Source: Candidatus Dojkabacteria bacterium (lineage in GTDB: Bacteria; Patescibacteriota; Dojkabacteria; J137). From it: a stretch of DNA of 64,000 nt. A model generated the notes under the pieces. The model was given only the letters and a program-made list of their open reading frames with translations. It did not search any database and had not been told where the DNA came from. Shown piece by piece: positions 31,618-60,535 of this stretch (positions within the stretch are counted from its first letter, which is position 1; each line of letters begins with the position of its first letter). The position numbers were made by a program, and so were the translations under genes. Where the stretch lies: contig JAUZRK010000001.1 in assembly GCA_030950485.1 (NCBI GenBank), positions 39,998 through 103,997 of the forward strand. The letters are read 5' to 3'.

Positions 31618-31776
31618 AAATTTGTTGTAATTTAAAATATAATTTTATATCTAATCCTTGTCGCATCCTCCCCGGCCCTCCTCCGAGCTCTAAGGAGAGA
31701 GAATGAGTTTGTGCCTTGAGCTGTACTTGCTTCCTCTATATGTAATGCCTTCTCTTTACAAATGAGAGGGAATTTT
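31605..31776 (+). repeat. Direct repeat copy 1 (about 170 bp) containing GC-rich palindromes; includes the trpA start region
   Basis: About 90% identical to 32315..32484 (..tcattagtttcataaatttgttgtaatttaaa..gtcgcatcctccccggccctcctccgagctctaaggagag..gagctgtacttgcttcctctatatgtaatgccttctctttacaaatgagagggaatt). Confidence 0.8.
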
Positions 31777-31830: not shown

Positions 31831-32238
31831 TCACTCATTCTCTCCGTCAGCTATGCGGTCCTCCCTTCCGCGAAAGGAGGGTTGGGAGGGATGCTGCAAC
31901 AACCACAGCTTAATTCTCTCCACAACTCCCCCAACATTACTCATAATTTCATAATTCCAAAATCTTACAACTCGATATCCCATCCCATTTAACACTCTAG
32001 TTCTTTCAACATCATATTCTCTTCTACTCAAATGAACCTCTCCATCTACTTCGATAACTAACTTATACTTTGCAATATAGAAATCAACTATATATCTACC
32101 AATTACTTTCTGTCTTAGAACTCTAACACCTAATTTATCTCGTCTGATTTCTTGCCATAATATGTTTTCAGACTTTGCCATATTAGTTCTATTCTCCCTA
32201 GCAAATTTCTTTATCCTTCTCATAAAAAAAATTAGCAT
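31831..32238 (-). CDS. DUF559 / Vsr-like (restriction-endonuclease-fold) domain protein, inserted between trpB and trpA
   Basis: ..ILWQEIRRDKLGVRVLRQKVIGRYIVDFYIAKYKLVIEVDGEVHLSRREYDVERTRVLNGMGYRVVRFWNYEI.. matches the DUF559 consensus. Its C-terminal 20 codons are encoded by an inverted partial copy of the flanking repeat (31831..31900). Confidence 0.65.
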   Translation of the reverse strand: MLIFFMRRIKKFARENRTNMAKSENILWQEIRRDKLGVRVLRQKVIGRYIVDFYIAKYKLVIEVDGEVHLSRREYDVERTRVLNGMGYRVVRFWNYEIMSNVGGVVERIKLWLLQHPSQPSFRGREDRIADGENE

Positions 32239-32314: not shown

Positions 32315-32484
32315 TCATTAATTTCATAAATTTGCTGTAATTTAAACTTTATTTTATATTTAGTCTTTGTCGCATCCTCCCCGGGCCTCCTTCGAGCTCG
32401 AAGGAGGGAGAATTAGTTTGGGCCTCGAGCTGTACTTGCTTCCTCTATATGTAATGCCTTCTCTTCACAAATGAGAGGGAATTC
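32315..32484 (+). repeat. Direct repeat copy 2 (about 170 bp), with perfect 20-bp palindrome CTCCTTCGAGCTCGAAGGAG; carries a decayed duplicate of the trpA start (MKLMNN*)
   Basis: Aligns with 31605..31776. Weaker similarity continues about 60 bp upstream, into a degraded trpA 5' coding fragment. Confidence 0.8.
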
Positions 32485-32526: not shown

Positions 32527-33841
32527 TTAGAAAAATTCACTTTTACTTTTTACTTTTGCCTTCAAATAATCCCTAAACCCCTCATCCCCAAACTCCTCAG
32601 TCAGAATAAATAAGTCTTTATCTCCACGTCCAGATAAATTAATCACAATTACATCTTCCTTCTTAGTCTTAGGAACAAATTTAATTGCGTATGCGACAGC
32701 GTGCAATGATTCTAAAGTACCTATTATTCCTTCAGTTGCTGCTAATGTTTTAAAAGCTTCTTTTACTTTATTATCAGTAGCGTGTTCATACTTCACTCTA
32801 CCCTGCTCGTATAGCATTGCATGTTGAGGGCCGATACCTGCGTAATCTAGGCCTGCAGAAATACTGTGAGTAGGTTGAACTTGGCCGTCAGTATCCTGTA
32901 GAAAATATGATTTATAAACCTTCTACAACACCAATTTTTGGATCATTATTAAGTCTAGATGCATGATCACCTATTTCTTTAACTCCTTTCCCCCCTGCCT
33001 CAACTGCTATTAAATTAACTTCTTTATCATCTAGAAAAGTATTAAATATTCCGATTGAGTTACTTCCACCTCCAACACAAGCAATAATATAACTTGGTTT
33101 AGTTTCTCCATACTTTGTTATTTGCTCCTTAACTTCTAACCCTATAATAGATTGAAAACCTCTAACCATTGATGGATAGGGATGCGGTCCTAATGCAGAT
33201 CCTAGTAGATAATAGCTATCGTCGACATTTGCAATCCAATCTTGAATTGCAGCTGTAACCGCGTCTTTTAATCGTCTTGTTCCATGCTTTATCGGAACTA
33301 CTGTCGCTCCAAGGCTTTCCATCCAAAAAACATTCGGCCTTTGTCTTTTATAATCAACTTCTCCCATATAGACAATACATTCCATTCCAAATTTTGCCGC
33401 AACTGTTGCAGTTGCAAGTCCATGTTGACCAGCTCGGGTTTCGGCAATCAATCTTTTCTTCCCCATTCTTTTCGCCAGAAGGGCTTGACCTAAGCAGTGA
33501 TTAATTTTATGTGCTCCAGTATGGTTCAATCCTTCATTTTTTATATAAACTTTTCCTCCTCCTAATTTCTCAGTTAAGTTTTTAGCATAATATAAGGGTG
33601 TAGGTCTTCCTCAGTAATTTTTATATAAATCATTTAAAAATTCTGGATCATTTTTAGCAGCTATATAAGCATTTTCTAATTCTTCTAAAGCTGGTATTAA
33701 CATCTCAGGAACATACGCGCCACCATAATTACCAAAGAAGCCTTTATTATCTGAATCATATTGTGTCTTAATGAATACTTGCTTTACCATGTAGTTCGTC
33801 ATAATAAGTAAATTCTGGAGATAAAAGTTCATTAATCTCAT
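32527..33841 (-). pseudogene. trpB: Tryptophan synthase beta subunit, disrupted (in-frame TGA near 33593, frameshift near 32905-32915)
   Basis: Three fragments: 33611..33841 (..[14 protein letters not shown]..), 32912..33529 (..[41 protein letters not shown]..) and 32527..32817 (..NLSGRGDKD..). Reading through, ..[16 protein letters not shown].. shows a stop inside conserved sequence, and ..VVEGL*/..VYKSYFLQD.. needs a 1-nt shift. Confidence 0.8.
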
Positions 33842-34604: not shown

Positions 34605-36329
34605 ATGAAGAAAAGAAAATTTTTAATAGGAATACTTTTAATTTTAACGATAGGGTTAGTAGGTGCATCACTATATGTAGGATTAAATCTACAAAATAGT
34701 GAAGGTCCTGAAGATAGTAGTGCAAGTACTTCTTGTACAGATACTTCTCCTGCATGTGTAGGGAAATCTAATGGTGATGACGCGGGATGTCAGGGTGGAG
34801 GGAGTGCTTTTAGATGTAAATGTGTAGCCGTTGCTTCTAGTGACCCTAACTGTAGTTCAGGAACTCTAAAAGTTAACTGTAGTTATGCTGATTCGAGCTG
34901 CGGTACTCCAACTAATAAATGTCCAAATGGTTCAAATTATTCAGGAGGTTGCGGTCAAGATGGATGCGCTTCTAATCAAAAGCCTCTTTTTGCTTGTGAT
35001 GCTAGTACAGAAAATACCTCTAAGACTGGTTGTCAAAGATCTCAAGATTGTGAAAATACAGTAGATCCTTGTAATGCTAATAGCGGTAGAGCTAATGCGT
35101 GTCAATGTTCTAGTAGCGGACAGTGTAGTTCAGGTTTTTGTAATTCAAGTAATAAGTGTGCAACAAAAACTAGTATAGGTGGCTTCACTTGCCCTAATCC
35201 TCCAAATGCCAGTGCAGTAATTTGTGCAGTATATGACTGCCCTAATGGAGATACTAATGGAGATGGCGAGTGTTTAGCTAGTGATGAAGGATCTAGCGAA
35301 GCTTTTTATACTTCAAACTGTCCAAGTAGCCCTCCTTCTGGTTGTGGTCAAATTGATTATTATACAGCTGCTAGCGGAAGTAGACCTGATTTTGGCTCTT
35401 ATTGTGGTTATTCATTCTTAAGCTTTAGCGCATGTAGTGGTGGAGTATCAGATCCTGTTTGCGGTAATGGTAAAAAGGAAGCTGGTGAAGAATGCGATGA
35501 TGGTAACAATAACAATAATGATTCATGTAATAATAATTGTAAGACAGTTGTACAACCTGTTTGCGGTGATGGGAAAATGGATGCAGGAGAAACTTGTGAT
35601 GATGGGAATAAAATAGATGGTGACGGCTGCGATTCTAATTGTCAAATCTCACCAAAATGCGGCGATGGCAATATGGATACTGGAGAGACTTGTGATGATG
35701 GGAATAATATTGATGGTGATGGGTGCGATAGTACTTGTCAAATTGAAGTAGATCCAACTTGCGGAGATGGGAATATGGATGCTGGTGAAACTTGTGATGA
35801 CGGTAACAATATAAATGGTGATGGGTGTGACTCAACTTGTCAGCTTGAAGAAAACCAATGTGGTGATTCTTGTACTACAAATTCTGAATGCCCTAATAAT
35901 CATTCTTGTATTTCAGGAACTTGTACTTTAAATGGTTGTACAGATAGTAACTGTGTTAATGGCTGTGCTCCAGTTTGTGGCGGACCTTGTACTTCTAATC
36001 TTGATTGTCCAAATGATCATAGCTGTGATTTAAATACTAATAAATGTATCTTAAGTGAATGTGCTAATGATCCTACTTGTATTAATAATGGCTGTCTTCC
36101 AAAGACTGCTCTTTTCTCTTCTGATAGCGGAATTCTAGCTGAAGAAAACAGACTTTTACTAAATGGTGTAGTTTTAATTATTAGCGCACTTTTAATTTAT
36201 AGATTAAAAGCTTTTAGTAAAACAGCAAAGTTTATTTCTGATGCAAATATTAGATTTACGTTTACAGGGAATGAAGATAGAAAAAGAAAAGAGTTTGAGA
36301 AAAAAATGAGTAGAAAAACTAGTAAATAA
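34605..36329 (+). CDS. Cysteine-rich repeat surface protein (574 aa): N-terminal signal/anchor, tandem Cys-rich repeats, conserved C-terminal module with CLPKTA + TM + basic tail
   Basis: N-terminal MKKRKFLIGILLILTIGLVGASLYVGLNLQNSEGPEDS. Four repeats of CG(N/D)G..(E/D)xGE.CDDGN..(N/D)GD(G/S)C(N/D)..C (Myxococcus-type cysteine-rich repeat pattern). C-terminal ..ECANDPTCINNGCLPKTALFSSD.., a 20-aa hydrophobic helix, then RLKAFSK. Confidence 0.6.
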   Translation: MKKRKFLIGILLILTIGLVGASLYVGLNLQNSEGPEDSSASTSCTDTSPACVGKSNGDDAGCQGGGSAFRCKCVAVASSDPNCSSGTLKVNCSYADSSCGTPTNKCPNGSNYSGGCGQDGCASNQKPLFACDASTENTSKTGCQRSQDCENTVDPCNANSGRANACQCSSSGQCSSGFCNSSNKCATKTSIGGFTCPNPPNASAVICAVYDCPNGDTNGDGECLASDEGSSEAFYTSNCPSSPPSGCGQIDYYTAASGSRPDFGSYCGYSFLSFSACSGGVSDPVCGNGKKEAGEECDDGNNNNNDSCNNNCKTVVQPVCGDGKMDAGETCDDGNKIDGDGCDSNCQISPKCGDGNMDTGETCDDGNNIDGDGCDSTCQIEVDPTCGDGNMDAGETCDDGNNINGDGCDSTCQLEENQCGDSCTTNSECPNNHSCISGTCTLNGCTDSNCVNGCAPVCGGPCTSNLDCPNDHSCDLNTNKCILSECANDPTCINNGCLPKTALFSSDSGILAEENRLLLNGVVLIISALLIYRLKAFSKTAKFISDANIRFTFTGNEDRKRKEFEKKMSRKTSK

Positions 36330-36406
36330 ATACTATTTAAATTGTAAATTAATTGTAATCATTCTCCTAAATTGATAGTCTGTATTGAGACGTTCACTAA
36401 CGACAT

Positions 36407-38734
36407 ATGAAGAAAAAAAGTAGAAAAATTGTAATTGCAATATTATTAATATTAACTCTTGGTTTAACAGGAGTTTCTGTTTATGTAGGACTTAATCTAC
36501 AAACTAGCGAAGCCCCAGAAGATTCAGCAGCAGGATGTTGGTGTACGGGATCAAATGAATGCCCTAGTGGTTACAGCTGGCAAGGCTCTGGCTCTGGCTG
36601 GTGTAGTGCTCCATTAGGCTGCTGTAATGCTGGAGGTGGCGGTTCGGCTGGAGGTGGAAGTACTGGAGGAGGGACACCTTCTACAGGAAGTTCTGACGGT
36701 TCTGCTTGTACATTCGGTAATAACTCTACTTGCGGTAACGTTTGTTGTTCATGTGGTAAGTGTGGGGGTGTTACAAAGACTTGTAATCAGATATGTGGAT
36801 CTTCAAGTGCAGGTGGAAGTAATCAATGTGAGACAGATACAGGAAGACCTGTAAATTGTGCTTGTAATAATGGTTCGCAGTGTTCATCTGGGAATTGTTC
36901 TGGTGGTACTTGTAAAAATGCTATTGACCCTTGTTCTGAGACTTCTGGAAGACCAAATGGTTGCTCTTGCAGTTCAGGATCTCAATGTTCAACGGATAAT
37001 TGCTCTGGAGGATCTTGTAAAACAACAGACAATACTGGAGGTGGTTCAACAGGTGGAGGACTAGGAGTTGGTGATGCTTGTACATTAGGAGGAGCTAGCT
37101 GTCCAACAGGATCGGCTTGTACACCGAATCAAAATGGAAACAATGTATGTAATGCTATTGATGGTTCAGGATTAGTAGATGGAACAAACCTAACTTACAA
37201 CCAGTGCGTTGCAAGTGGTTCTACTTGCGGTGGTAATTATATTGCATTTAACTGTCCTAATGGATTTGGAGACCAATGTTTTGAAAATGAATTAAGAACT
37301 ACTTCTTTATCTGCTGCTACTTCGCATATGAATGGTTGCGGGCAAGTTGACACAGTATTCCAAGGTGGTTCTTGTAATGATCGTTTATGCGGTGGATTTG
37401 TTATTTCAAAAACAAACTGTGGAGGAGGCGGTGGTGGTGGAACTGTAGACCCTGCTGGACCAGTTTGTGGTAATGGAGTAAAAGAAAGTGGTGAGCAATG
37501 TGATGATGGTAATACAAATAATAACGATAGCTGTAATAATAGTTGTAAAACTGTAGTTCAGCCAGTATGTGGTAATGGTCTTATGGAAAGCGGTGAAGCT
37601 TGTGATGACGGTAACAATAATAATGCTGATAGTTGTAATAATAATTGTCAGATTGTAGACGCAATTAGCTGTGGAGATGGCGTTATGGAAGGTGATGAGC
37701 AATGCGATGACGGTAATAACGTAAACAATGATGGGTGTAGTGCAACTTGTACTTTAGAGCAGTTTCAATGCGGGGAGCCATGTTCAGTAGATGCTCAGTG
37801 TCCAAATGGCCATTCTTGTCTAGATGGAATATGTACATTAGATACTTGTACAGCACAAACATGTACAAATGGTTGCCCTAACTCTTGTGGTAATGGTGTT
37901 TTAGAAACAGGAGAACAGTGTGATGATGGGAATAATACAAATGGAGATGGATGTAGCGCTACTTGTACACTAGAGGCAATAGATCCTCTTTGTGGTGACG
38001 GTAATCTTGACCCTGGAGAAGAATGCGATAATGGTACAGGCAATGGAGCTGTTTGTACTCCAACATATGGAAATAATTGTCAGTTCTGTTCTCTTAACTG
38101 TTCTCAGTTAGAAATTGAAGGACCTAGCTGTGGTAATGGAACAGTTGAAAGTATGGAGCAATGTGATCCCTTAGCAACACCTAATGGCTGCGCAGCATCT
38201 TCAACATGTACTAGCTCTTGTATTTGTGAACCTGTGACTGGTCCACAATGTGGTGATACCTGTGGATCAAATCTAGATTGTCCAAATAATCATTCATGTA
38301 TTTCTGGTAAATGTACACTTAATGGATGTACCGATGGAAACTGTGTTAATGGTTGTTTCCCACTATGTGGAGGACCATGTACCTCAAATAAAGACTGTCC
38401 AAATGATCACACTTGTAATTTAATAACTAATCGTTGTGTATTAAGTGAATGTGCAAATGATCCAACATGTATTAATAATGGATGCTTGCCAAAGACTGCA
38501 ATATTCTCATCTGATGATGGAGTATTCTCTGAAAGTAATAGAAATTTAACTTTTGGGTTAATGATTATGGCTACTGCTCTATTGCTTTATAAGTTTAATT
38601 TCTTTACAAAGATAGGTTTAAATCTTACTGGAAGTAAATATAGATTTGTATTCTCTCCTTTAGATAATGATCTAAAACAAAAAGGATTTGAATATAAAGT
38701 AGAAAAAGACTTAGAAGATAAAGCTAAAGATTAA
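36407..38734 (+). CDS. Cysteine-rich repeat surface protein paralog (775 aa) with the same N-terminal anchor and C-terminal CLPKTA + TM module
   Basis: MKKKSRKIVIAILLILTLGLTGVSVYVGLNLQTSEAPEDS. Gly/Cys-rich N-region. Six or more CG(N/D)G..GE.CD(D/N)GN..(N/D)GDGC repeats. C-terminal ..ECANDPTCINNGCLPKTAIFSSDDG.. + TM + ..KFNFFTK... Confidence 0.6.
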   Translation: MKKKSRKIVIAILLILTLGLTGVSVYVGLNLQTSEAPEDSAAGCWCTGSNECPSGYSWQGSGSGWCSAPLGCCNAGGGGSAGGGSTGGGTPSTGSSDGSACTFGNNSTCGNVCCSCGKCGGVTKTCNQICGSSSAGGSNQCETDTGRPVNCACNNGSQCSSGNCSGGTCKNAIDPCSETSGRPNGCSCSSGSQCSTDNCSGGSCKTTDNTGGGSTGGGLGVGDACTLGGASCPTGSACTPNQNGNNVCNAIDGSGLVDGTNLTYNQCVASGSTCGGNYIAFNCPNGFGDQCFENELRTTSLSAATSHMNGCGQVDTVFQGGSCNDRLCGGFVISKTNCGGGGGGGTVDPAGPVCGNGVKESGEQCDDGNTNNNDSCNNSCKTVVQPVCGNGLMESGEACDDGNNNNADSCNNNCQIVDAISCGDGVMEGDEQCDDGNNVNNDGCSATCTLEQFQCGEPCSVDAQCPNGHSCLDGICTLDTCTAQTCTNGCPNSCGNGVLETGEQCDDGNNTNGDGCSATCTLEAIDPLCGDGNLDPGEECDNGTGNGAVCTPTYGNNCQFCSLNCSQLEIEGPSCGNGTVESMEQCDPLATPNGCAASSTCTSSCICEPVTGPQCGDTCGSNLDCPNNHSCISGKCTLNGCTDGNCVNGCFPLCGGPCTSNKDCPNDHTCNLITNRCVLSECANDPTCINNGCLPKTAIFSSDDGVFSESNRNLTFGLMIMATALLLYKFNFFTKIGLNLTGSKYRFVFSPLDNDLKQKGFEYKVEKDLEDKAKD

Positions 38735-42726: not shown

Positions 42727-44118
42727 TTGACCAAACCATATTCTAAAATTTTTGAACTTAAGTTTTTTTCTCACCTTATATTAATCTTACTTAGTTTTGG
42801 GATTTTAACTATACCCCTTGTTACTGGTTTTAATAATTATACTCTAGGAAGAGGTTGGGATTTGCCAAAGGTTAATTTATTAATGCAATTATTAGTATTA
42901 CTTAGTTTTTTAATACTAGTGCAAAAAACTTACTTAATCTCTATTAATAGACTGAACTTTAGTAGGGCTAAGAAGATTCTTCTGCCTATAGTTCTTTTAA
43001 CCTACCTATTTATAGTAACAATTAATTCTAGTTGGACTAGAAATTTAGATCCAGATACTGAATTAAATAGTATTTATAAGTTCCTCTTTCATAATATTCT
43101 TGGCAAGACTGAACTAATCGAAGTAAATCAATCTTTAGTCGGAAATGCATTTAGAGAGACTGGATTTGTGTTTTATTTTATCTTATTGGTATCTCTATTT
43201 CTAATCTCATCTTATATAAACAAAGATACTATTAAATATATATTTTTAGCTTTTATAACCTCTTCAATTTTACAGTCATTTATTGGGCTAAATCAGTTTT
43301 ATAGACTCTACCAAAATGACCCAGAAAATATTTTTCTTGGAGAAAGAGTTTATGGAAGCTTTGGGCAGGCAAATTTTTTTGCAGGACATATTTTTATTGG
43401 CTTCTTTATTTCGGCATTCTTATTAACTAATTATAAGCAAAGGTCAAAGCTTAAAAATATAATTCTTTCAATTTCAACTAGCTTAATACTTTTAACACTA
43501 ATACTGTCTTTTTCAATTTGGATTTATGTAATCATGGTTCTATCCTTACTATTTATTCTAATTTATAAATACTTTGATAAAAAATACTATAGGAAAGTAT
43601 TGGCATTATTTTTTATTTTATTAGCAATCCTAGCAGTTCCATTAGGTTCCTTATTTGTTAAATATAATAGTGAGTATGAACATAGAGTAACTATTTGGGA
43701 GGATGTTATTAGAGTTTATATTCAAAACCCAATTGATGGTAAAGATGATATTAAACTAATGTTATTTGGTTCAGGTTTTGATACTATGGGCGAAGAATTT
43801 AGAGAATGGAATAAAATTCCTGGGAACTACACAGATAGGTCGCATAATATAATTTTTGATACAATTGCTTTTACTGGAATTTTTGGATTAGTAGTACTAG
43901 CTTCCGGACTGATATACATTTTTCTTAGAAGAAGTAGTTTTAATAGTGAACATCAGTATTTGCTTTTTACACTTTTCTTCTTACTATTAGCTAGAAACTT
44001 AGTTCATACTTACTCTGCTGTAAACTTATTTGAGTTATTCTTGTTTGGTATAATTTTACTGAATAGTGGTTTATACACTACGAAAGATCTGCAATCTGAT
44101 AAAGAGATTGCAGCTTAA
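42727..44118 (+). CDS. Polytopic integral membrane protein (10+ TM; possibly O-antigen ligase/polymerase-like)
   Basis: 463 aa, almost entirely hydrophobic helices with one larger loop. Family not confirmed. Confidence 0.35.
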   Translation: MTKPYSKIFELKFFSHLILILLSFGILTIPLVTGFNNYTLGRGWDLPKVNLLMQLLVLLSFLILVQKTYLISINRLNFSRAKKILLPIVLLTYLFIVTINSSWTRNLDPDTELNSIYKFLFHNILGKTELIEVNQSLVGNAFRETGFVFYFILLVSLFLISSYINKDTIKYIFLAFITSSILQSFIGLNQFYRLYQNDPENIFLGERVYGSFGQANFFAGHIFIGFFISAFLLTNYKQRSKLKNIILSISTSLILLTLILSFSIWIYVIMVLSLLFILIYKYFDKKYYRKVLALFFILLAILAVPLGSLFVKYNSEYEHRVTIWEDVIRVYIQNPIDGKDDIKLMLFGSGFDTMGEEFREWNKIPGNYTDRSHNIIFDTIAFTGIFGLVVLASGLIYIFLRRSSFNSEHQYLLFTLFFLLLARNLVHTYSAVNLFELFLFGIILLNSGLYTTKDLQSDKEIAA

Positions 44119-45973
44119 ATCCTCTTTTATCATAATACTCTCTTGTCCCAATAGCTGAGATTACAGCCAGTTTACTAAATCCATTCTCTTTCGCAATCTC
44201 TTTAGATTTCTCGATTAATTTTGAACCTAAGCCTAAATGTTGAGCTTCACCTTTTGAACCTTTTGACAGTTCTAGACTTGGACCGTAAACATGTACCTCA
44301 CGAATAATTGCAGAATCTTTTAACTCATAAGATACACTTCTCATGCTTTGTCCCTCCCCTTGAGGGGAGGTTAGGTGGGGTGAATCACCCCGGTCTTTAC
44401 GTGGAACTGATAATCTCAAAAAACCAGCAATCTCTCTCTCCTTCGTTATGTATTGTAAAAAGTACTCAGTACTTACAGTTGTAGAGAATTTAATAATGTC
44501 TAATTCAAGATCATCAAAAGTAACCTTTTTTCCTTTAATTTCTCGAGCTCTGATATTTGGATTAGCTCTACTCTCTTTCTTTAATTTATATTCAACTACT
44601 TGTCTTAAATTTGTAGTTTTATTTCCAGCCTCAATTTCCGTTGAAGGTATATCTCTAATTACTCTAGTTATTCTAGTATACTCGGGTGCAGTCTCCATCA
44701 TCTCTGATATTAGTTTAATCAAGGTTTCATTATCATATGGTTCGTATTTGCCTTCTTCATATAAATCACTAAGCTCAGTGTTTTTGATAATTGATGTTGG
44801 ATAAATTTTCACTTCGTCAGGTTTATAATTTTCAGACTCATATAACTCATGCCAAGATTTCAAATCTATTTCTGGTCTTGCACCGTAAAGATTTGGCATC
44901 ATATGCGCATGGATTTTAAACCCAGCTTTACGAAGCAATGCAAATGCGTTCGCTGTGTGAACCTTATGTTCTCCTCTTTTATTTAAATCGCTTATATTGT
45001 CGTCTAAAACTTGGATTCCAAGTTGTACCTTAGTAGCTCCGAGTCTTCTCATTCTATAAACCTCTTTTTCAGTTATTAAATCGGGTCTAGTTTCTAAAAC
45101 TAAACCAACACATCTTATTTTCCTAATAGCATTAGTTTTATGTAAATCTTCTAATTCTTTCCATAAATCATCAACTGAAGTTTTACGATCGTATGTTTCT
45201 AAAGCTACATATTTATTTTCAAAACCTTCCTTAAACTCTTTAGTTCTTACAAGCTTATTATATGAATCATCTCCAATCTCATCTCTTAATTTTTCATTAT
45301 AATCCTTTGATAAATATTCTTTCATCTCAAGAGCACTTAGAGTATCTTGTTTATCGTCAACATCGCTACTTATTTCAAATTCCTGCATAGCTCTAAAACA
45401 TTCTTTAATAAACCAAACTTGATACTTTTCTGGATAAGATGACCAAGATCCACCAAGAATTAGTAGTTCAATCTTTTCAGTTGGATGACCAATATTTTTT
45501 AATGCTTTTAGTCTATTGAAAGTCTGTAGATATGGGCTAAATTTATTAGCTAAAGCCCTCTGCGCTCCTGGCTCTGTCGCTATATAACTCTTTGGCATTC
45601 TTACATCATTTGGACAGAAGACACACTTCCCAGGACACATCCAAGGTTTTGTGAAAACAGTTACAGTAGTTACTCCTGAAATAGTTCTAGTTGGTTTCAT
45701 TTTAATAAAACCTTTTAGCTTTTGAAAACTGGTATTATCTTTTACTTCTTTCTCTAACATCTCTATTCCTTGAATAAGTTGGTCTCTAGAAAAGAGTTCT
45801 GATTTATCTTTCGGATTATTTTTTAATATTCGTTCAATTTTTTGATTAAACTTTATTCTATTTTTTTGTGTTATTTTTCTAAATTCGTCAGTGTCTATCA
45901 AATCTAGGATTTGATTTAATATTATAGTTAGCTCAGTTTTATATACCTCAGGACTGAATTGATATTTTTTCAT
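44078..45973 (-). CDS. elp3: Elp3-like radical-SAM/GNAT tRNA modification enzyme (elongator protein 3 homolog)
   Basis: Radical SAM Cx3Cx2C (..TKPWMCPGKCVFCPNDV..), central Elp3 core, C-terminal GNAT (..REVHVYGPSL..HLGLGSKLIEKSKEIAKENGFSKLAVISAIGTREYYDKRGF). 631 aa. Carries an in-frame GC-rich palindromic insertion (44343..44402). Confidence 0.8.
   Translation of the reverse strand: MKKYQFSPEVYKTELTIILNQILDLIDTDEFRKITQKNRIKFNQKIERILKNNPKDKSELFSRDQLIQGIEMLEKEVKDNTSFQKLKGFIKMKPTRTISGVTTVTVFTKPWMCPGKCVFCPNDVRMPKSYIATEPGAQRALANKFSPYLQTFNRLKALKNIGHPTEKIELLILGGSWSSYPEKYQVWFIKECFRAMQEFEISSDVDDKQDTLSALEMKEYLSKDYNEKLRDEIGDDSYNKLVRTKEFKEGFENKYVALETYDRKTSVDDLWKELEDLHKTNAIRKIRCVGLVLETRPDLITEKEVYRMRRLGATKVQLGIQVLDDNISDLNKRGEHKVHTANAFALLRKAGFKIHAHMMPNLYGARPEIDLKSWHELYESENYKPDEVKIYPTSIIKNTELSDLYEEGKYEPYDNETLIKLISEMMETAPEYTRITRVIRDIPSTEIEAGNKTTNLRQVVEYKLKKESRANPNIRAREIKGKKVTFDDLELDIIKFSTTVSTEYFLQYITKEREIAGFLRLSVPRKDRGDSPHLTSPQGEGQSMRSVSYELKDSAIIREVHVYGPSLELSKGSKGEAQHLGLGSKLIEKSKEIAKENGFSKLAVISAIGTREYYDKRGFKLQSLYQIADLS
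44350..44393 (+). repeat. GC-rich palindromic element (CCTCCCCTTGAGGGGAGG + GGGGTGAATCACCCC) inserted in-frame within elp3
   Basis: Two adjacent palindromes in an otherwise AT-rich gene, encoding ..DRGDSPHLTSPQGEGQSMRS... Related to copies at 56454..56492 and 59749..59796. Confidence 0.7.
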
Positions 45974-46034: not shown

Positions 46035-46697
46035 TTAGTAAATGAAATCAGTCCAATCAATGTGATTAATAGAACTATACTTGTAGTCTGTTGGATAATC
46101 GTATCCCCATTTTTCAGCGTGTTTCAAATGATTATTTATTGTATATAAGTATTTAACATTAAATTCTTTCTCATTACGAATTACTCTATAGTAAAAAGAC
46201 TTTTGCCATTTGAATTTTGGATCATTTGATTTTGGTATATCTTTTCGATGTCTTGATATGTAATCGTGTATTTGTTCTAGGAGATTTGGTAGAGAGGCAT
46301 TTGTATGATATTGCCGTGAACGTAGGGGAAGAAACGTTTCTTCCCCTACGTTGCCTCTGGCGTTACTCCCTGCCATAGGCCCATTCGAATCAAACATCAA
46401 TTTATTAAACCCCATAATCGTATTACAGCTATGCGAAAACTGTTTCTTAATAGAAAACATAATTTTTGAAATATCAGACTTTTCTGATGGCTTAATAATT
46501 AGATGTAGATGATCATACAATATATTAAATGCATACAACTCGAATCCATGAATCTTTTTTGATAATTTCAATTGCATAATTAATAAGTCAGCGAACACGT
46601 TGTTTTTAAAATATGGATAATTATTTTGTGTTTTTGTTGTTATAAAATATATGGCATGATCTACATAAAACCTTTCTGTTGTTTTGTATTTGTTCAT
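46035..46697 (-). mobile_element. REP-associated tyrosine transposase (RAYT; IS200/IS605 TnpA-like HUH Y1 transposase) with an internal REP insertion
   Basis: HUH motif ..YDHLHLIIKP.. and RAYT C-terminal motif ..KWQKSFYYRVIRNEKEF... A perfect 30-bp palindrome CGTAGGGGAAGAAACGTTTCTTCCCCTACG (46321..46350) lies in-frame inside the gene (..GSNARGNVGEETFLPLRSRQYH..). Confidence 0.7.
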
Positions 46698-46784: not shown

Positions 46785-46818
46785 AGAGTAGGTGAAGAAA
46801 CATTTCTTCACCTACTCT
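46785..46818. repeat. REP-like palindrome AGAGTAGGTGAAGAAA-CA-TTTCTTCACCTACTCT, sister of the RAYT-internal REP; probably also the terminator of the helicase gene
   Basis: 16-bp perfect arms, same GAAGAAAC core as the 46321..46350 palindrome. T-rich on the minus strand downstream of the 46840..48468 stop. Confidence 0.7.
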
Positions 46819-56341: not shown

Positions 56342-56453
56342 AGCGTAATATTACACTAATACATGTGATTTTGTCAATGACAACTTGAGTTTCTTACTCA
56401 AGAGCCATACCTGCAAAAAGTCAGGCGACATAATACAATGAAATGCACACTGC

Positions 56454-56492
56454 CTTTCTCCCCCTTGAGGGGGATTTAAGGGGGTGACCCTG
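56454..56492 (+). repeat. GC-rich palindromic element (CTTTCTCCCCCTTGAGGGGGATTTAAGGGGGTGACCCTG)
   Basis: Core perfect palindrome TCCCCCTTGAGGGGGA at 56459-56474. Near-identical copy at 59749..59796; degenerate copy inside elp3. Confidence 0.75.
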
Positions 56493-56751
56493 TGAGTGAT
56501 GATATGAAGATCTTCCCATAAAGGAATACACTGCATCACATTAAAAACTTATTTTCTTTTGTTAAGTTTTGCAGTAATAACGACGGGCAATGATGTATCA
56601 GCTTCGGCAGGACTAACTCCGCCAAAGAGAGGGTAATTCAATTTGAAACCAAGTTAGTTACTACAAGTTACAACAAGAGTAAATCAGATTTAACTCTTCC
56701 AGTATAAAGAATTTAAAAAATTAGCAATCTAATACACCTAACATACTCGTT

Positions 56752-59671: not shown

Positions 59672-59748
59672 TTTTGGCGACATACTAGATATATCCGTTA
59701 GCTGCGTGGTTAATGAGTCATAGCAACAATGAAGGCTAAAAAAGACTG

Positions 59749-59796
59749 TCTTTCTCCCCCTAGAGGGGGATTTAAGGGGGTGATCCTGTTCGGGGG
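59749..59796 (+). repeat. GC-rich palindromic element (CTTTCTCCCCCTAGAGGGGGATTTAAGGGGGTGATCCTGTTCGGGGGG)
   Basis: Core TCCCCCTAGAGGGGGA at 59755-59770. About 90% identical to 56454..56492. Confidence 0.75.
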
Positions 59797-59843: not shown

Positions 59844-59877
59844 AAAAAAAGAGCAGATTTTACTCTGCTCTTTTTTA
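59844..59877. terminator. Bidirectional rho-independent terminator (A7-AGAGCAG..CTGCTCT-T6)
   Basis: Stem flanked by an A-run and a T-run, between convergent genes. Confidence 0.65.
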
Positions 59878-59893
59878 ATATCTTAACTTTATA

Positions 59894-60535
59894 TTACGCT
59901 GCTATTGCAATAGGGTCATCACTGAATCTTAATTTTTCTTGTTCAGCCTTAATTCTATCATTTAATTGAGGAACTACAGCAGAGTTTATCTTACCCCTTA
60001 AGGCTTGTAATTCATTAAGTCCATTTGCCTCGGTAACAAAAATTGTATCTCTTCTAATTTCTAGAGTATTTATTGCTGTCTTAACAGATACAGTTTGTTC
60101 TTCTAAAGCTTCTAATTCTGCAATTAAATCATTAATCTTAATTGGATCATATATACTCTGTGCCACTTTTAATATTTCACTTGCTTTTTCATTTGCCGAA
60201 TTCTGTGCCTCTGAAATTACTGAATCAGTAATATCTCCTCTTACTCCGTCTATGTATCCGATTCCACTTTCAATTCTTTCAATTTCACTTTCATCGCCTG
60301 CTTTTACTGCTGCCAAAGTTACTTCATCAACATTAAATCTTGTTCTAGCAGTCTTTTCAATAGTTTCACCAGTTTTGCTATCAATATAAGAGCTAACTAC
60401 TTTAGTCTCTTCTGCCTCAGGAATGGGTGCAACACTTTTTTCTGAAGCAATTGCTCCAAATAAGTTAAAAATTTGTATCTTTTCTTCTGAAGTATACTTA
60501 TTGAATAGCGCAGGAGTATTAATTGTATCTCTCAA
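59894..60535 (-). CDS. Hypothetical protein (213 aa)
   Basis: Complete ORF; no domain recognised. Confidence 0.3.
   Translation of the reverse strand: MRDTINTPALFNKYTSEEKIQIFNLFGAIASEKSVAPIPEAEETKVVSSYIDSKTGETIEKTARTRFNVDEVTLAAVKAGDESEIERIESGIGYIDGVRGDITDSVISEAQNSANEKASEILKVAQSIYDPIKINDLIAELEALEEQTVSVKTAINTLEIRRDTIFVTEANGLNELQALRGKINSAVVPQLNDRIKAEQEKLRFSDDPIAIAA

What the first reader, a model, noticed from the sequence alone, without database searches (positions are those of the whole stretch)
44343..44402. GC-rich palindromic element inserted in-frame inside elp3 (Rickettsia-palindromic-element-like behaviour)
In an about 30% GC gene, a 45-60 nt block consisting of two palindromes (CCTCCCCTTGAGGGGAGG and GGGGTGAATCACCCC) sits in-frame. 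It adds about 18 residues (..DRGDSPHLTSPQGEGQSMRS..) just before the conserved GNAT ..REVHVYG.. motif. The same element family occurs intergenically at 56454 and 59749. In-frame spread of selfish palindromes into ORFs is well documented only in a few lineages, such as Rickettsia RPEs.
Basis: seen in the sequence. Interest (0 to 1): 0.75.

Follow-up and report, generated by a model that had tools for sequence, protein, structure and literature searches.

The report
Triplex-type repeat inserted inside elp3
A 47-base GC-rich repeat of the BoxC / 'intrastrand-triplex' family sits in-frame in a surface loop of the tRNA-modification gene elp3 of a small CPR bacterium, and the same family brackets DUF559 endonuclease genes in many phyla, which may hint at how these repeats spread.

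Summary
Window 44349-44395 is 64% GC in a 32% GC window. It lies in-frame in elp3 (minus strand) and adds about 16 residues that 110 of 120 homologs lack. AlphaFold places them in a disordered loop of the GNAT domain. Two intergenic copies (56449-56493, 59745-59789) share its layout (3 pattern hits, 0.00 expected).

The element is not two independent palindromes. It is one unit made of a pyrimidine arm, TTGA, a purine arm, TTA and a mirror purine block, followed by the first 7 nt of an inverted partner. This is the architecture of the published BoxC/PIT/'TM' class II intrastrand-triplex repeats (Holder 2015). Those repeats were reported in E. coli as always intergenic and with no gene association.

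Three things seen here go beyond that paper. First, in-frame copies recur: other Dojkabacteria Elp3 orthologs carry them at several loops, and so do Bacteroidota LeuRS, a histidine kinase and other genes. Second, the family occurs in CPR and Bacteroidota. Third, DUF559 (Vsr-fold) endonuclease genes are bracketed by inverted units across phyla, including E. coli ycjD.

The neighbouring RAYT transposase has its own, different GTAG-tagged REP and is not implicated. How the units move is inferred, not shown.

The parts
44349..44395 (+). E1, the GC-rich repeat copy inside elp3. The unit's G-rich strand is the + strand, and the elp3 coding strand reads its C-rich strand.
   Evidence: 63.8% GC; pattern hit; absent from 110/120 homologs
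44353..44370 (+). E1 blocks 1 and 2: pyrimidine arm CCTCCCC, loop TTGA, purine arm GGGGAGG (Watson-Crick hairpin)
44374..44383 (+). E1 block 3: GGTGGGG, the mirror of GGGGAGG with A changed to T (six G.G-C triads and one T.A-T), followed by TGA. It is preceded by loop 2, TTA (44371-44373).
   Evidence: mirror covariation in 117 units; same loops as E. coli TMECO type A
44385..44391 (+). TCACCCC: the start (C-foot) of a truncated inverted partner unit. With GGGGTGA it forms the second 'palindrome'.
   Evidence: inverted doublets in related loci
44078..45973 (-). elp3 (radical SAM + GNAT tRNA-modification enzyme), 631 aa and intact. The insert corresponds to about residues 527-543.
56449..56493 (+). 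E2, an intergenic unit: TCCCCC-TTGA-GGGGGA-TTT-AGGGGG-TGA. It lies between two minus-strand genes.
   Evidence: a contig of a second assembly of the same organism ends inside it
59745..59789 (+). E3, an intergenic unit between convergent genes, 93% identical to E2
31831..32238 (-). DUF559 (Vsr-fold endonuclease-like) ORF. Its C-terminal tail HPSQPSFRGRE is encoded by a divergent unit of the same architecture.
   Evidence: Pfam DUF559 1.6e-33; keeps all residues invariant in 60 homologs
31860..31893 (+). Unit at the DUF559 3' end: CCTCCCTTC-CGC-GAAAGGAGG, then GTT, then GGGAGGGATG. On the coding strand it reads C-foot then hairpin.
32373..32408 (+). Unit upstream of the DUF559 start, inside the 143-nt repeat: CATCCTCCCC-GG-GCCTCCTTC-GAGCTC-GAAGGAGGG. 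On the DUF559 coding strand it reads hairpin then G-foot.
46035..46697 (-). RAYT-like Y1 transposase next to elp3. Listed as a contrast: it is not linked to E1.
   Evidence: Pfam Y1_Tnp; NCBIfam REP_Tyr_transpos 79.9 bits against a cut-off of 80
46322..46349 (.). GTAG...CTAC 'double-foot' REP in-frame inside the RAYT ORF. A sibling lies at 46788-46815 in its 5' flank. This is a different repeat family.
   Evidence: matches the subclass 2.4 description in PMC6006769

Best explanation
E1 is a copy of a BoxC/PIT/'TM'-type repeat unit, a class II G/C-rich potential intrastrand triplex: pyrimidine arm, TTGA, purine arm, TTA, mirror purine block. It is followed by the first 7 nt of an inverted partner. 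About 48 nt became inserted in the loop between two beta-strands of the Elp3 GNAT (KAT) domain. The copy persists because the loop tolerates length variation and because the unit is read in a stop-free frame of its C-rich strand, giving a Ser/Pro/Gly-rich disordered peptide (DRGDSPHLTSPQGEGQS). Copies in other frames would truncate the protein and be lost.

Shown: the identity of the architecture, the insertion relative to orthologs, recurrence of in-frame copies in other Elp3 orthologs and in other genes, the disordered-loop location, and a strong cross-phylum association of these units with DUF559 endonuclease genes.

Inferred: units spread by a nick- or repair-dependent copying process, and the DUF559 Vsr-fold nuclease supplies or exploits the nick, in a REPtron-like arrangement with a PD-(D/E)xK nuclease in place of a HUH transposase. 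I give about 0.8 to identity plus tolerated insertion, and about 0.35 to DUF559 being the mobilising enzyme.
For: Anatomy. E1, E2 and E3 share the blocks. In 117 non-identical units from public genomes, C-run, G-run 1 and G-run 2 have equal lengths in 106/117. The stem extension is complementary at 178/234 positions against 137+/-4 permuted, and mirror symmetry holds at 159/208 against 129+/-4. E. coli TMECO type A has the same TTA second loop and the same T-for-A in block 3, and TMECO no. 2 also has a TTGA first loop; the motif forms a triplex in vitro (PMC4666352).

Insertion. 110/120 homologs have no insert of 8 aa or more in this loop. The insert has pLDDT below 50 between strands 515-524 and 554-562 in a model with mean pLDDT 85. 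It lies before the HVYG motif.

Recurrence. P0012 carries TCACCCC-GA-CCCTCTCC-TATA-GGAGAGGG in the same loop and orientation. P0038 has two in-frame elements, one with an intergenic sibling about 1 kb away. P0008 has a 104-nt GC-rich insert. In the collection loci, units lie in-frame inside LeuRS (two genomes), another class I aaRS, a lanthipeptide dehydratase and a histidine kinase, and just before the SpoIIE domain of a TPR protein.

DUF559. It is the top Pfam family among ORFs flanking units, 11/150. In 9/9 loci the unit reads TCACCCC then hairpin on the coding strand; in 7 of them it starts within 15 nt after the stop codon or contains it. An inverted partner lies just upstream in at least 7. 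26/60 DUF559 homologs end in unit-encoded tails, against 0/60 for the same pattern inside the domain. In 80 DUF559 loci sampled by protein, 73 have a C-first hairpin within about 250 nt, at 4.7 and 3.7 per kb against 0.46 per kb elsewhere. The arrangement recurs in a CPR-like contig, a 38% GC contig, a 65% GC contig encoding a protein that NCBI labels Afipia, and E. coli ycjD.
Against: No insertion event was observed. The closest Elp3 ortholog is only 64% identical, so no empty-site allele, target-site duplication or polymorphism could be examined. The DUF559 gene in this window is 12 kb from elp3 and is bracketed by a divergent unit subfamily, not the E1-E3 subfamily. In the broad DUF559 sample the orientation rule is only a tendency (nearest footed unit upstream 33:13, downstream 22:17), and the 'elsewhere' control is mostly coding DNA. 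Covariation counts are inflated by subfamily relatedness; only about 4-5 independent subfamilies support them. Holder et al. found no stable triplex in double-stranded DNA or in vivo, and no link to mobile elements in E. coli. DUF559 has no demonstrated activity.
Confidence: 0.7

Rival explanations
1. The units are pre-existing repeats that spread or turn over through host replication and repair at structure-forming DNA (slippage, template switching, gene conversion), with no dedicated enzyme. DUF559 genes are selfish homing-type cassettes that merely target the units, so the association runs from repeat to gene and not the other way.
For: DUF559 cassettes are flanked by direct copies of a unit-bearing segment: 143-nt repeats in the window and an [A]-gene-[B]-[A] arrangement in L123. 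That is the pattern expected after integration at an existing unit. The ycjD-fabI spacer in E. coli holds a duplicated ycjD 3' fragment. Vsr-fold homing endonucleases are known (PMC2677866, PMC3239194). Holder et al. link TM sites to local instability.
Against: It does not explain why units are so uniform across phyla, nor why start and stop codons of DUF559 lie inside the feet. Most units (about 90% of collection hits) have no DUF559 nearby, which fits either model.
Confidence: 0.3
2. E1 is a REP/REPIN mobilised by the RAYT-type Y1 transposase encoded 61 nt from elp3.
For: A RAYT-like gene is adjacent. REPs are short GC-rich palindromes, occur as inverted doublets, and can lie in-frame in genes (PMC3733652, PMC6006769).
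Against: E1, E2 and E3 contain no GTAG, CTAC, CGTC or GACG tag. The RAYT has its own cognate REP, GTAGG(G/T)GAAGAAAC(G/A)TTTCTTC(C/A)CCTAC. One copy is in-frame inside the RAYT gene and one is in its flank, with compensatory stem changes. No unit flanks the RAYT gene. Y1_Tnp is not among the 25 most frequent families next to 119 collection units, and tblastn found one weak, non-adjacent hit.
Confidence: 0.05
3. The segment is a native, lineage-specific loop of Elp3 (adaptive or neutral) whose GC-richness and palindromy are coincidental, or it is an assembly artefact.
For: This loop varies in length in about 10 of 120 homologs, several with AT-type inserts that show no repeat signature.
Against: There are three pattern hits in the window against 0.00 expected. 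The same unit occurs in at least 119 stretches of other genomes. GC is twice the background. The reading frame is kept and the flanks are ordinary Elp3 sequence, and an independent assembly of the same organism shares the sibling copy E2 up to its contig end.
Confidence: 0.03

Closest known systems
[quoted passage not shown] 2015, PMC4666352, which cites the 1990s BoxC reports and Maher and co-workers' PIT study of 2000)
   Same: Three consecutive blocks: pyrimidine arm, purine arm, mirror purine block. The type A second loop TTA is shared, and TMECO no. 2 also has the TTGA first loop. Block 3 has the same T-for-A. Copies are dispersed and often form inverted pairs. They are not promoter- or terminator-like. 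The E. coli ycjD-fabI unit fits their TMECO consensus.
   Different: The stem sequence differs from the E. coli consensus CCCTCNCCC. The hosts here are CPR (Dojkabacteria) and Bacteroidota, which that paper does not mention. The copy here lies in-frame inside a gene, whereas TMECO was reported as always intergenic. The DUF559 bracket was not reported: the paper states that no functional correlation with flanking genes was found and never mentions DUF559 or endonucleases.
Rickettsia palindromic elements (RPE)
   Same: Short repeats found in-frame in conserved genes that remain intact, with intergenic siblings.
   Different: Different host and different sequence family. According to PMC3733652, RPE-4 and RPE-6 are CGTC-tagged REPs and RPE-1 elements are longer palindromic insertions. 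RPEs have no mirror third block or DUF559 link that I know of (own knowledge, not tested).
REP/REPIN-RAYT systems ('REPtrons'), including in-frame REPs in tnpA-REP subclass 2.4 (PMC6006769)
   Same: Short GC-rich hairpins, inverted doublets, mostly at gene 3' ends, and a small nuclease gene bracketed by inverted copies of its repeat, with occasional in-frame genic copies. The window holds a genuine example at 46322-46349.
   Different: There is no GTAG or CGTC tag. The bracketed gene is a PD-(D/E)xK Vsr-fold DUF559, not a HUH Y1 transposase. The extra mirror block is absent from REPs.
Vsr-fold (EDxHD) homing endonucleases such as I-Bth0305I (PMC3239194; PMC2677866)
   Same: A small Vsr-like nuclease acting as a selfish element, which is a precedent for a DUF559-type fold driving or exploiting site-specific DNA breaks.
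   Different: Those enzymes reside in introns and inteins and home into unique gene targets. DUF559 here is free-standing and bracketed by dispersed repeats. Its activity is untested; the closest solved structure is the uncharacterised 3HRL.

Membership tests
BoxC/PIT/TM class II G/C-rich intrastrand triplex motif | Three consecutive blocks: block 1 pairs with block 2 by Watson-Crick, and block 3 mirrors block 2 (G.G-C, A.A-T or T.A-T triads). Stems 6-15 nt with at most 1 mismatch, loops 1-6 nt (ITxF criteria). | tested here: met
   E1 is CCTCCCC/TTGA/GGGGAGG/TTA/GGTGGGG, which gives 7 Watson-Crick pairs, 6 G.G-C triads and 1 T.A-T. E2 and E3 are TCCCCC/T(T/A)GA/GGGGGA/TTT/AGGGGG.
BoxC/PIT/TM class II G/C-rich intrastrand triplex motif | Type A second loop TTA | tested here: met
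   E1 has TTA and E2/E3 have TTT(A); definition.
BoxC/PIT/TM class II G/C-rich intrastrand triplex motif | Dispersed, multi-copy, and often in inverted pairs | tested here: met
   Three close copies plus two or three divergent units in 64 kb. E1 carries a truncated inverted partner. Full doublets occur in related loci. No census of the whole source genome was possible.
BoxC/PIT/TM class II G/C-rich intrastrand triplex motif | The single strand folds into a triplex in vitro (CD, NMR) | not testable with these tools
   The folding tools model Watson-Crick pairs only.
E. coli TMECO subfamily | Consensus CCCTCNCCC-N3-6-GGGNGAGGG-N3-GGGNGAGGG | tested here: not met
   E1-E3 stems are CCTCCCC and TCCCCC. 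They belong to the same class but a different subfamily.
Rickettsia palindromic elements | Sequence membership in RPE-1 to RPE-10, in a Rickettsia host | tested here: not met
   The host is a Candidatus Dojkabacteria MAG. There is no CGTC tag, which marks RPE-4/6 according to PMC3733652.
Rickettsia palindromic elements | In-frame residence in intact conserved genes (a behavioural feature) | tested here: met
REP/REPIN-RAYT | GTAG or CGTC tetranucleotide at the foot of the hairpin | tested here: not met
   None in E1-E3.
REP/REPIN-RAYT | Cognate RAYT gene flanked by the repeat | tested here: not met
   The RAYT is flanked by, and contains, a different GTAG REP. RAYT is not enriched near units.
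MITE | Terminal inverted repeats plus a target-site duplication | tested here: inconclusive
   No consistent duplication was seen at E1-E3. The shared CTTT(C/G)T at the 5' edge looks like part of the unit. No empty site was available for comparison.
DUF559-bracketed units (arrangement proposed here) | The unit matches those found at DUF559 gene ends | tested here: met
   The right ends in L007, L014 and L016 (TCACCCC-TTAA-TCCCC-TCAA-GGGGA) match the reverse complement of E2/E3 apart from run lengths.
DUF559-bracketed units (arrangement proposed here) | A DUF559 gene adjacent to this particular copy | tested here: not met
   The only DUF559 in the window is at 31831-32238, 12 kb away, and has divergent units.

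The most novel reading that the evidence does not exclude
BoxC/PIT/TM intrastrand-triplex repeats, an orphan repeat class known since the 1990s with no known origin or function, may be the cognate repeats of DUF559 (Vsr-fold) endonuclease genes. That would be a widespread REPtron-like system built on a PD-(D/E)xK nuclease instead of a HUH transposase. Its units would disperse through genomes from CPR to Bacteroidota to Proteobacteria (including E. coli ycjD) and repeatedly land in-frame in conserved proteins such as Elp3 and LeuRS, adding disordered Ser/Pro/Gly loops.
Probability: 0.35. Interest if true: 0.85.

Novelty: new variant of a known kind. Interest (0 to 1): 0.62.

Why it matters
First, it identifies the element: an apparent RPE-like oddity belongs to a published but poorly understood repeat class, BoxC/PIT/TM. 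Second, it shows that this class is not confined to intergenic DNA. It remodels loops of conserved enzymes in very small CPR genomes and in Bacteroidota, which matters for protein evolution, for annotation (spurious 'SPxPxxGEG' peptides and tails) and for MAG assembly, since a contig of a second assembly ends inside a unit. Third, it gives two long-standing orphans a testable connection: DUF559, a large family of unknown function that includes E. coli YcjD, and the BoxC/TM repeats, for which earlier work found no associated gene. Simple E. coli genetics and oligonucleotide biochemistry could test the link.

Tried and rejected
- RAYT as mobiliser: rejected, because it has its own GTAG double-foot REP and is not enriched near units.
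- Known RNA family: none found at gathering threshold or at E-value up to 1.
- Intrinsic terminator: the units were not flagged, in line with published negative results for PIT elements.
- Literature search for the literal sequence: only irrelevant hits.
- Target-site duplication and empty site: not resolvable, since the nearest Elp3 ortholog is 64% identical.
- Strain polymorphism: the only other assembly is the same organism (99.97% identity) and is fragmented. Its contig stops inside E2, and one look-up found no record.
- Whole-genome census of the source: not achieved.
- GC island inside the RAYT ORF: first suspected to be another E-type unit, but it is a GTAG REP.
- My hairpin-plus-foot detector is conservative. 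It missed the 31860 unit and long-loop units, so counts from it are lower bounds, and foot calls in G-rich DNA carry some false positives.
Full report
**Observation.** The block is present exactly as described. Window 44349-44395 is 63.8% GC in a window of 31.6% GC. It contains CCTCCCCTTGAGGGGAGG (44353-44370) and GGGGTGAATCACCCC (44377-44391), each unique in the window. As single-stranded DNA it folds into two hairpins (-12.9 kcal/mol, z = -3.05). It lies inside the minus-strand ORF 44078..45973 (631 aa). That ORF is Elp3: Radical_SAM and Radical_SAM_C in Pfam and TIGR01211 at 453 bits. Protein names given by NCBI place the source in a Candidatus Dojkabacteria (CPR) MAG. The two intergenic relatives are real. 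56449-56493 and 59745-59789 are 93% identical, and one pattern covering all three copies gives 3 hits against 0.00 expected.

**Is it an insertion?** Among 120 Elp3 homologs (47-64% identical to the query), 110 have no insert of 8 aa or more in this loop. The consensus there is LRLSIPxSK-E-NxITxEL, and the query has about 16 extra residues, DRGDSPHLTSPQGEGQS. The query keeps every column that is invariant across the 120 sequences, including the radical-SAM cysteines, so the gene looks functional. Aligned to solved Elp3 structures, the site falls in the GNAT/KAT domain between the 'LRLRIP' strand and the 'RELHVYG' strand. An AlphaFold model (mean pLDDT 85.4, pTM 0.82) gives pLDDT below 50 for residues 528-543, between strands 515-524 and 554-562. 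The insert is therefore a disordered excursion from a beta-hairpin loop.

**Recurrence in Elp3.** The same loop carries unrelated inserts in about nine other homologs. One of them (P0012, 59% identical, from a 34% GC contig) carries a different GC-rich unit in the same orientation, TCACCCC-GA-CCCTCTCC-TATA-GGAGAGGG, encoding SPRPSPIGEGE. P0038 has two in-frame elements. The first is CACCCT-CACCCT-AACCCTCTCC-CAAAA-GGAGAGGGG, encoding HPNPLPKGEG. The second is about 52 nt long, and its reverse complement lies intergenically about 1 kb downstream in the same contig. P0008 has a 104-nt GC-rich insert at another loop. P0021 and P0010 show the same peptide signature (their DNA was not checked). In-frame landing of GC-rich hairpin units in Elp3 has therefore happened repeatedly in this clade.

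**Anatomy.** Nearly all were Bacteroidota, with single hits in Nitrospirae, Lachnospiraceae, Akkermansia and Chlorohelix genomes. In 117 non-identical units, C-run, G-run 1 and G-run 2 have equal lengths in 106. The bases flanking the C-run are complementary to those after the first G-run (178/234 against 137+/-4 on permutation). The bases before the second G-run mirror those after the first (159/208 against 129+/-4). At least four subfamilies obey this rule (CT/AG/GA, AT/AT/TA, GT/AC/CA, CC/GG/GG); relatedness within subfamilies inflates the raw counts. The unit is therefore pyrimidine arm, loop, purine arm, loop, mirror purine block. Units commonly occur as inverted doublets of the form hairpin-TTA-GGGGTGA.t.TCACCC-TTA-hairpin. 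A structural scan of the window finds five hairpin-plus-foot units (31860, 32385, 44352, 56458, 59754). None of the AT-richer hairpins has a foot.

**Identity.** A mirror third block is what an intramolecular purine-motif triplex needs. The literature confirms this is a described class: BoxC, later called PIT elements and then 'TM' motifs (Holder et al. 2015, PMC4666352). The E. coli TMECO consensus is CCCTCNCCC-N3-6-GGGNGAGGG-N3-GGGNGAGGG. Type A has TTA as the second loop, and copy no. 2 reads CCCTCTCCC-TTGA-GGGAGAGGG-TTA-GGGTGAGGG. That copy has the same two loops and the same T-for-A in block 3 as E1 (CCTCCCC-TTGA-GGGGAGG-TTA-GGTGGGG). The E. coli motif forms a stable triplex as single-stranded DNA (CD, NMR), but not detectably in duplex DNA or in vivo. 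It occurs in inverted type A + type B pairs. The authors report it as 'always located intergenically', not associated with mobile elements, and without functional correlation to flanking genes. Earlier work found no promoter or terminator activity. My own checks agree: there is no Rfam family and no terminator-like character.

**In-frame copies elsewhere.** Twelve of the 120 collection hits are spanned by open frames with at least 40 codons on each side, and eight of those frames exceed 300 codons. Pfam confirms real genes:

- Leucyl-tRNA synthetase in two genomes, with the unit inside the editing-domain match.
- Another class I aminoacyl-tRNA synthetase.
- A lanthipeptide dehydratase.
- A hybrid histidine kinase, with the unit inside the HATPase_c match.
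- A TPR-SpoIIE protein, with the unit just before the SpoIIE match.
- A protein with a marginal match to the T9SS C-terminal sorting domain (E = 5.8e-6, just below Pfam's cut-off).

The peptides (TPLNLPSRGE, SPLLISPQGE, HPSNSPQGE) resemble the window's SPHLTSPQGEG. By my reading of the sequence, the C-rich strand has two stop-free frames and the G-rich strand has one. The observed strand counts (11 open frames on the C-rich strand and 3 on the G-rich strand among the 14 listed) are compatible with random landing followed by selection against stops.

**Which gene goes with the units?** The Y1 transposase 61 nt from elp3 is RAYT-like (Pfam Y1_Tnp; NCBIfam REP_Tyr_transpos at 79.9 bits against a cut-off of 80). 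It has its own repeat. GTAGGGGAAGAAACGTTTCTTCCCCTAC lies in-frame inside the gene (46322-46349, encoding NVGEETFLPLRS). GTAGGTGAAGAAACATTTCTTCACCTAC lies in its 5' flank (46788-46815), with compensatory stem changes. This is the 'double-foot' REP, in-frame between the HUH and Tyr motifs, that has been described for TnpA-REP subclass 2.4 (PMC6006769). E1-E3 carry no GTAG or CGTC tag.

By contrast, the window's DUF559 ORF (31831..32238, Pfam 1.6e-33) ends in a tail encoded by a unit. tblastn found DUF559 genes next to units in 9 of 119 collection loci. An unbiased Pfam scan of the nearest ORFs on both sides of the units ranks DUF559 first (11/150). Response_reg and LytTR follow, apparently from one repeated paralogous context, judging by the shared flanks of those loci. 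Y1_Tnp is not among the 25 most frequent families.

The geometry is stereotyped. In 9/9 loci the unit reads TCACCCC then hairpin on the DUF559 coding strand. In 7 it starts within 15 nt after the stop codon or contains it, and in L007 and L011 the unit's own TAA is the stop codon. In at least 7 an inverted partner (hairpin then GGGG(A)TGA) lies just upstream of the start.

From the DUF559 side, 26 of 60 homologs from several phyla end in unit-encoded tails such as NSPSPRPSPPLGERG, TPTPNPSPQGEE and PHPNPLPHRGRG. The same pattern never matches inside the domain. In 80 metagenomic DUF559 loci chosen by protein alone (31-67% GC), 73 have a C-first hairpin within about 250 nt and 56 have a footed unit. 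Hairpin densities are 4.7 per kb upstream and 3.7 per kb downstream, against 0.46 per kb in the rest of the loci. The nearest footed unit upstream favours the G-foot 33:13; downstream the bias is weak, 22:17. The control DNA is mostly coding, so the fold-enrichment is approximate.

The bracket recurs in a CPR-like contig ([A]-DUF559-[B, overlapping the stop]-[A]), in a 38% GC contig, and in a 65% GC contig encoding a protein that NCBI labels Afipia. It also recurs in E. coli K-12. There, ycjD ends ...TCA CCC TCT CCC TGA. Its GTG start lies in GAGGTGA at the end of a long TCACC...GGTGA hairpin. The ycjD-fabI spacer holds a duplicated ycjD 3' fragment and a unit that fits the TMECO consensus, CCCTCGCCCC-TCT-GGGGAGAGGG-TTA-GGGTGAGGGG. 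That 78-nt segment has a median of 15 places per genome in 5,426 E. coli genomes. With 23 TMECO copies in 4.64 Mb, one lying within about 300 nt of the DUF559 gene ycjD has a chance probability of roughly 0.003 by my estimate. Among the 25 papers in the library that mention DUF559, none has a title or abstract about an associated repeat. Holder 2015 never mentions DUF559 or endonucleases, and the titles and abstracts of later papers citing intrastrand triplexes show no such link.

**Mechanism.**

- Shown: the architecture, the insertion relative to orthologs, its disordered-loop location, recurrent in-frame copies, and the DUF559 bracket.
- Inferred: units are copied to new sites by a nick- or repair-dependent process. 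Genic copies survive only in permissive loops and stop-free frames. DUF559, a Vsr-fold PD-(D/E)xK protein that keeps its invariant D/E/D/H residues and whose closest solved structure is the uncharacterised 3HRL, either mobilises the units or homes into them.
- Direct repeats flanking DUF559 cassettes (143 nt in the window; unit A in L123) fit integration at an existing unit. That keeps the 'DUF559 is a parasite of the repeats' rival alive.
- Vsr-fold homing endonucleases provide a precedent.
- Because elp3 is read from the C-rich strand, its mRNA carries the pyrimidine-type arrangement, which according to Holder et al. can also form in RNA. No effect of this was tested.

**Limits.** No empty site, target duplication or polymorphism could be examined. 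The only other assembly is the same organism (99.97% identity), and one of its contigs ends inside E2 at window 56462. That fits a multi-copy or hard-to-sequence element but is weak evidence. The window's own DUF559 is bracketed by a divergent subfamily, not by E-type units. No whole-genome census of the source was possible.

**Verdict.** The RPE-like reading is right about behaviour but wrong about family. The element is a BoxC/PIT/TM-type unit, a known kind, seen here in an unreported host group and in an in-frame genic state, with a gene association (DUF559) that I could not find described. The interest is moderate to high, mainly because of that association.

Noticed in passing
window 46322-46349 and 46788-46815 (RAYT ORF 46035-46697, minus strand): The RAYT-like gene carries a perfect 28-nt GTAG...CTAC 'double-foot' REP in-frame between its HUH and Tyr motifs (encoding NVGEETFLPLRS). 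A sibling copy lies in its 5' flank, with compensatory stem changes (GGGG/CCCC to GGTG/CACC). This is a second, independent in-frame palindrome in the window and matches TnpA-REP subclass 2.4 of PMC6006769.
   Followed up: yes
window 31632-31774 and 32341-32483: Two 143-nt direct repeats (90% identical), each containing a GC-rich unit, flank the DUF559 gene and its 3' unit. The whole block sits between the trpB stop and the trpA start, and looks like a cassette integrated at a pre-existing unit-bearing spacer.
   Followed up: partly
window 32527-32817 and 32912-33529 (minus strand): trpB (PALP domain) is split into two ORFs about 95 nt apart, next to the DUF559 cassette. It could be a frameshift, a pseudogene or a sequencing error.
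   Followed up: no
window about 35440-38170: Arrays of roughly 102-nt repeats encode Cys-rich CGNG..GE.CDDGN modules in large ORFs. This is the only other region of raised GC (up to 39%) and is unrelated to the units.
   Followed up: no
window 59844-59913 (minus strand): A sub-threshold Rfam match to STnc40 (37 bits against a gathering score of 45, E = 4e-4) lies about 55 nt from E3. It is probably chance.
   Followed up: no
L210 (GCA_030949735.1 contig JAUZSD010000016.1), end = window 56462: A second, fragmented assembly of the same organism has a contig that ends inside the E2 hairpin. Both contigs recovered from that assembly show only indel differences from the window (0 mismatches; 4 and 6 gap openings), and one fewer C is visible in the E2 C-run.
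   Followed up: yes
Elp3 homolog alignment A3, block after query residue 206: A second insertion hot spot. P0006, P0014, P0038, P0100, P0060 and P0062 carry 'RLET...(S/A)(P/A)RF(K/E)TSN(A/S)GF'-type or '...ERGF/ESGF' inserts that look like translated long hairpins (GAGGCTCTCGAA...TTCGAGAGCCTC in P0038).
   Followed up: partly
L211 (E. coli K-12 NC_000913.3 1351030-1351830): The ycjD-fabI spacer contains a roughly 45-nt duplicate of the ycjD 3' end upstream of the TMECO-type unit. The ycjD GTG start lies inside the 3' arm of a long TCACC...GGTGA hairpin.
   Followed up: partly
L127 1300-2100: Three direct copies of a 'double-foot' unit (CCCCCC-a-CCCCCC-TTATTAA-GGGGGG-ACAAA-GGGGGG) lie before, at the end of, and after a DUF559 gene. 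The first and third copies are followed by an AGGAGG Shine-Dalgarno-like sequence, and the first copy lies inside the C-terminus of the upstream ORF.
   Followed up: no
one search hit table: After one hit on a CPR-like contig, the window's DUF559 is most similar (about 53% identity) to proteins labelled Paraprevotella (Bacteroidota). Together with the near-identical E-type units in Bacteroidota, this hints at cross-phylum transfer of DUF559 cassettes.
   Followed up: no
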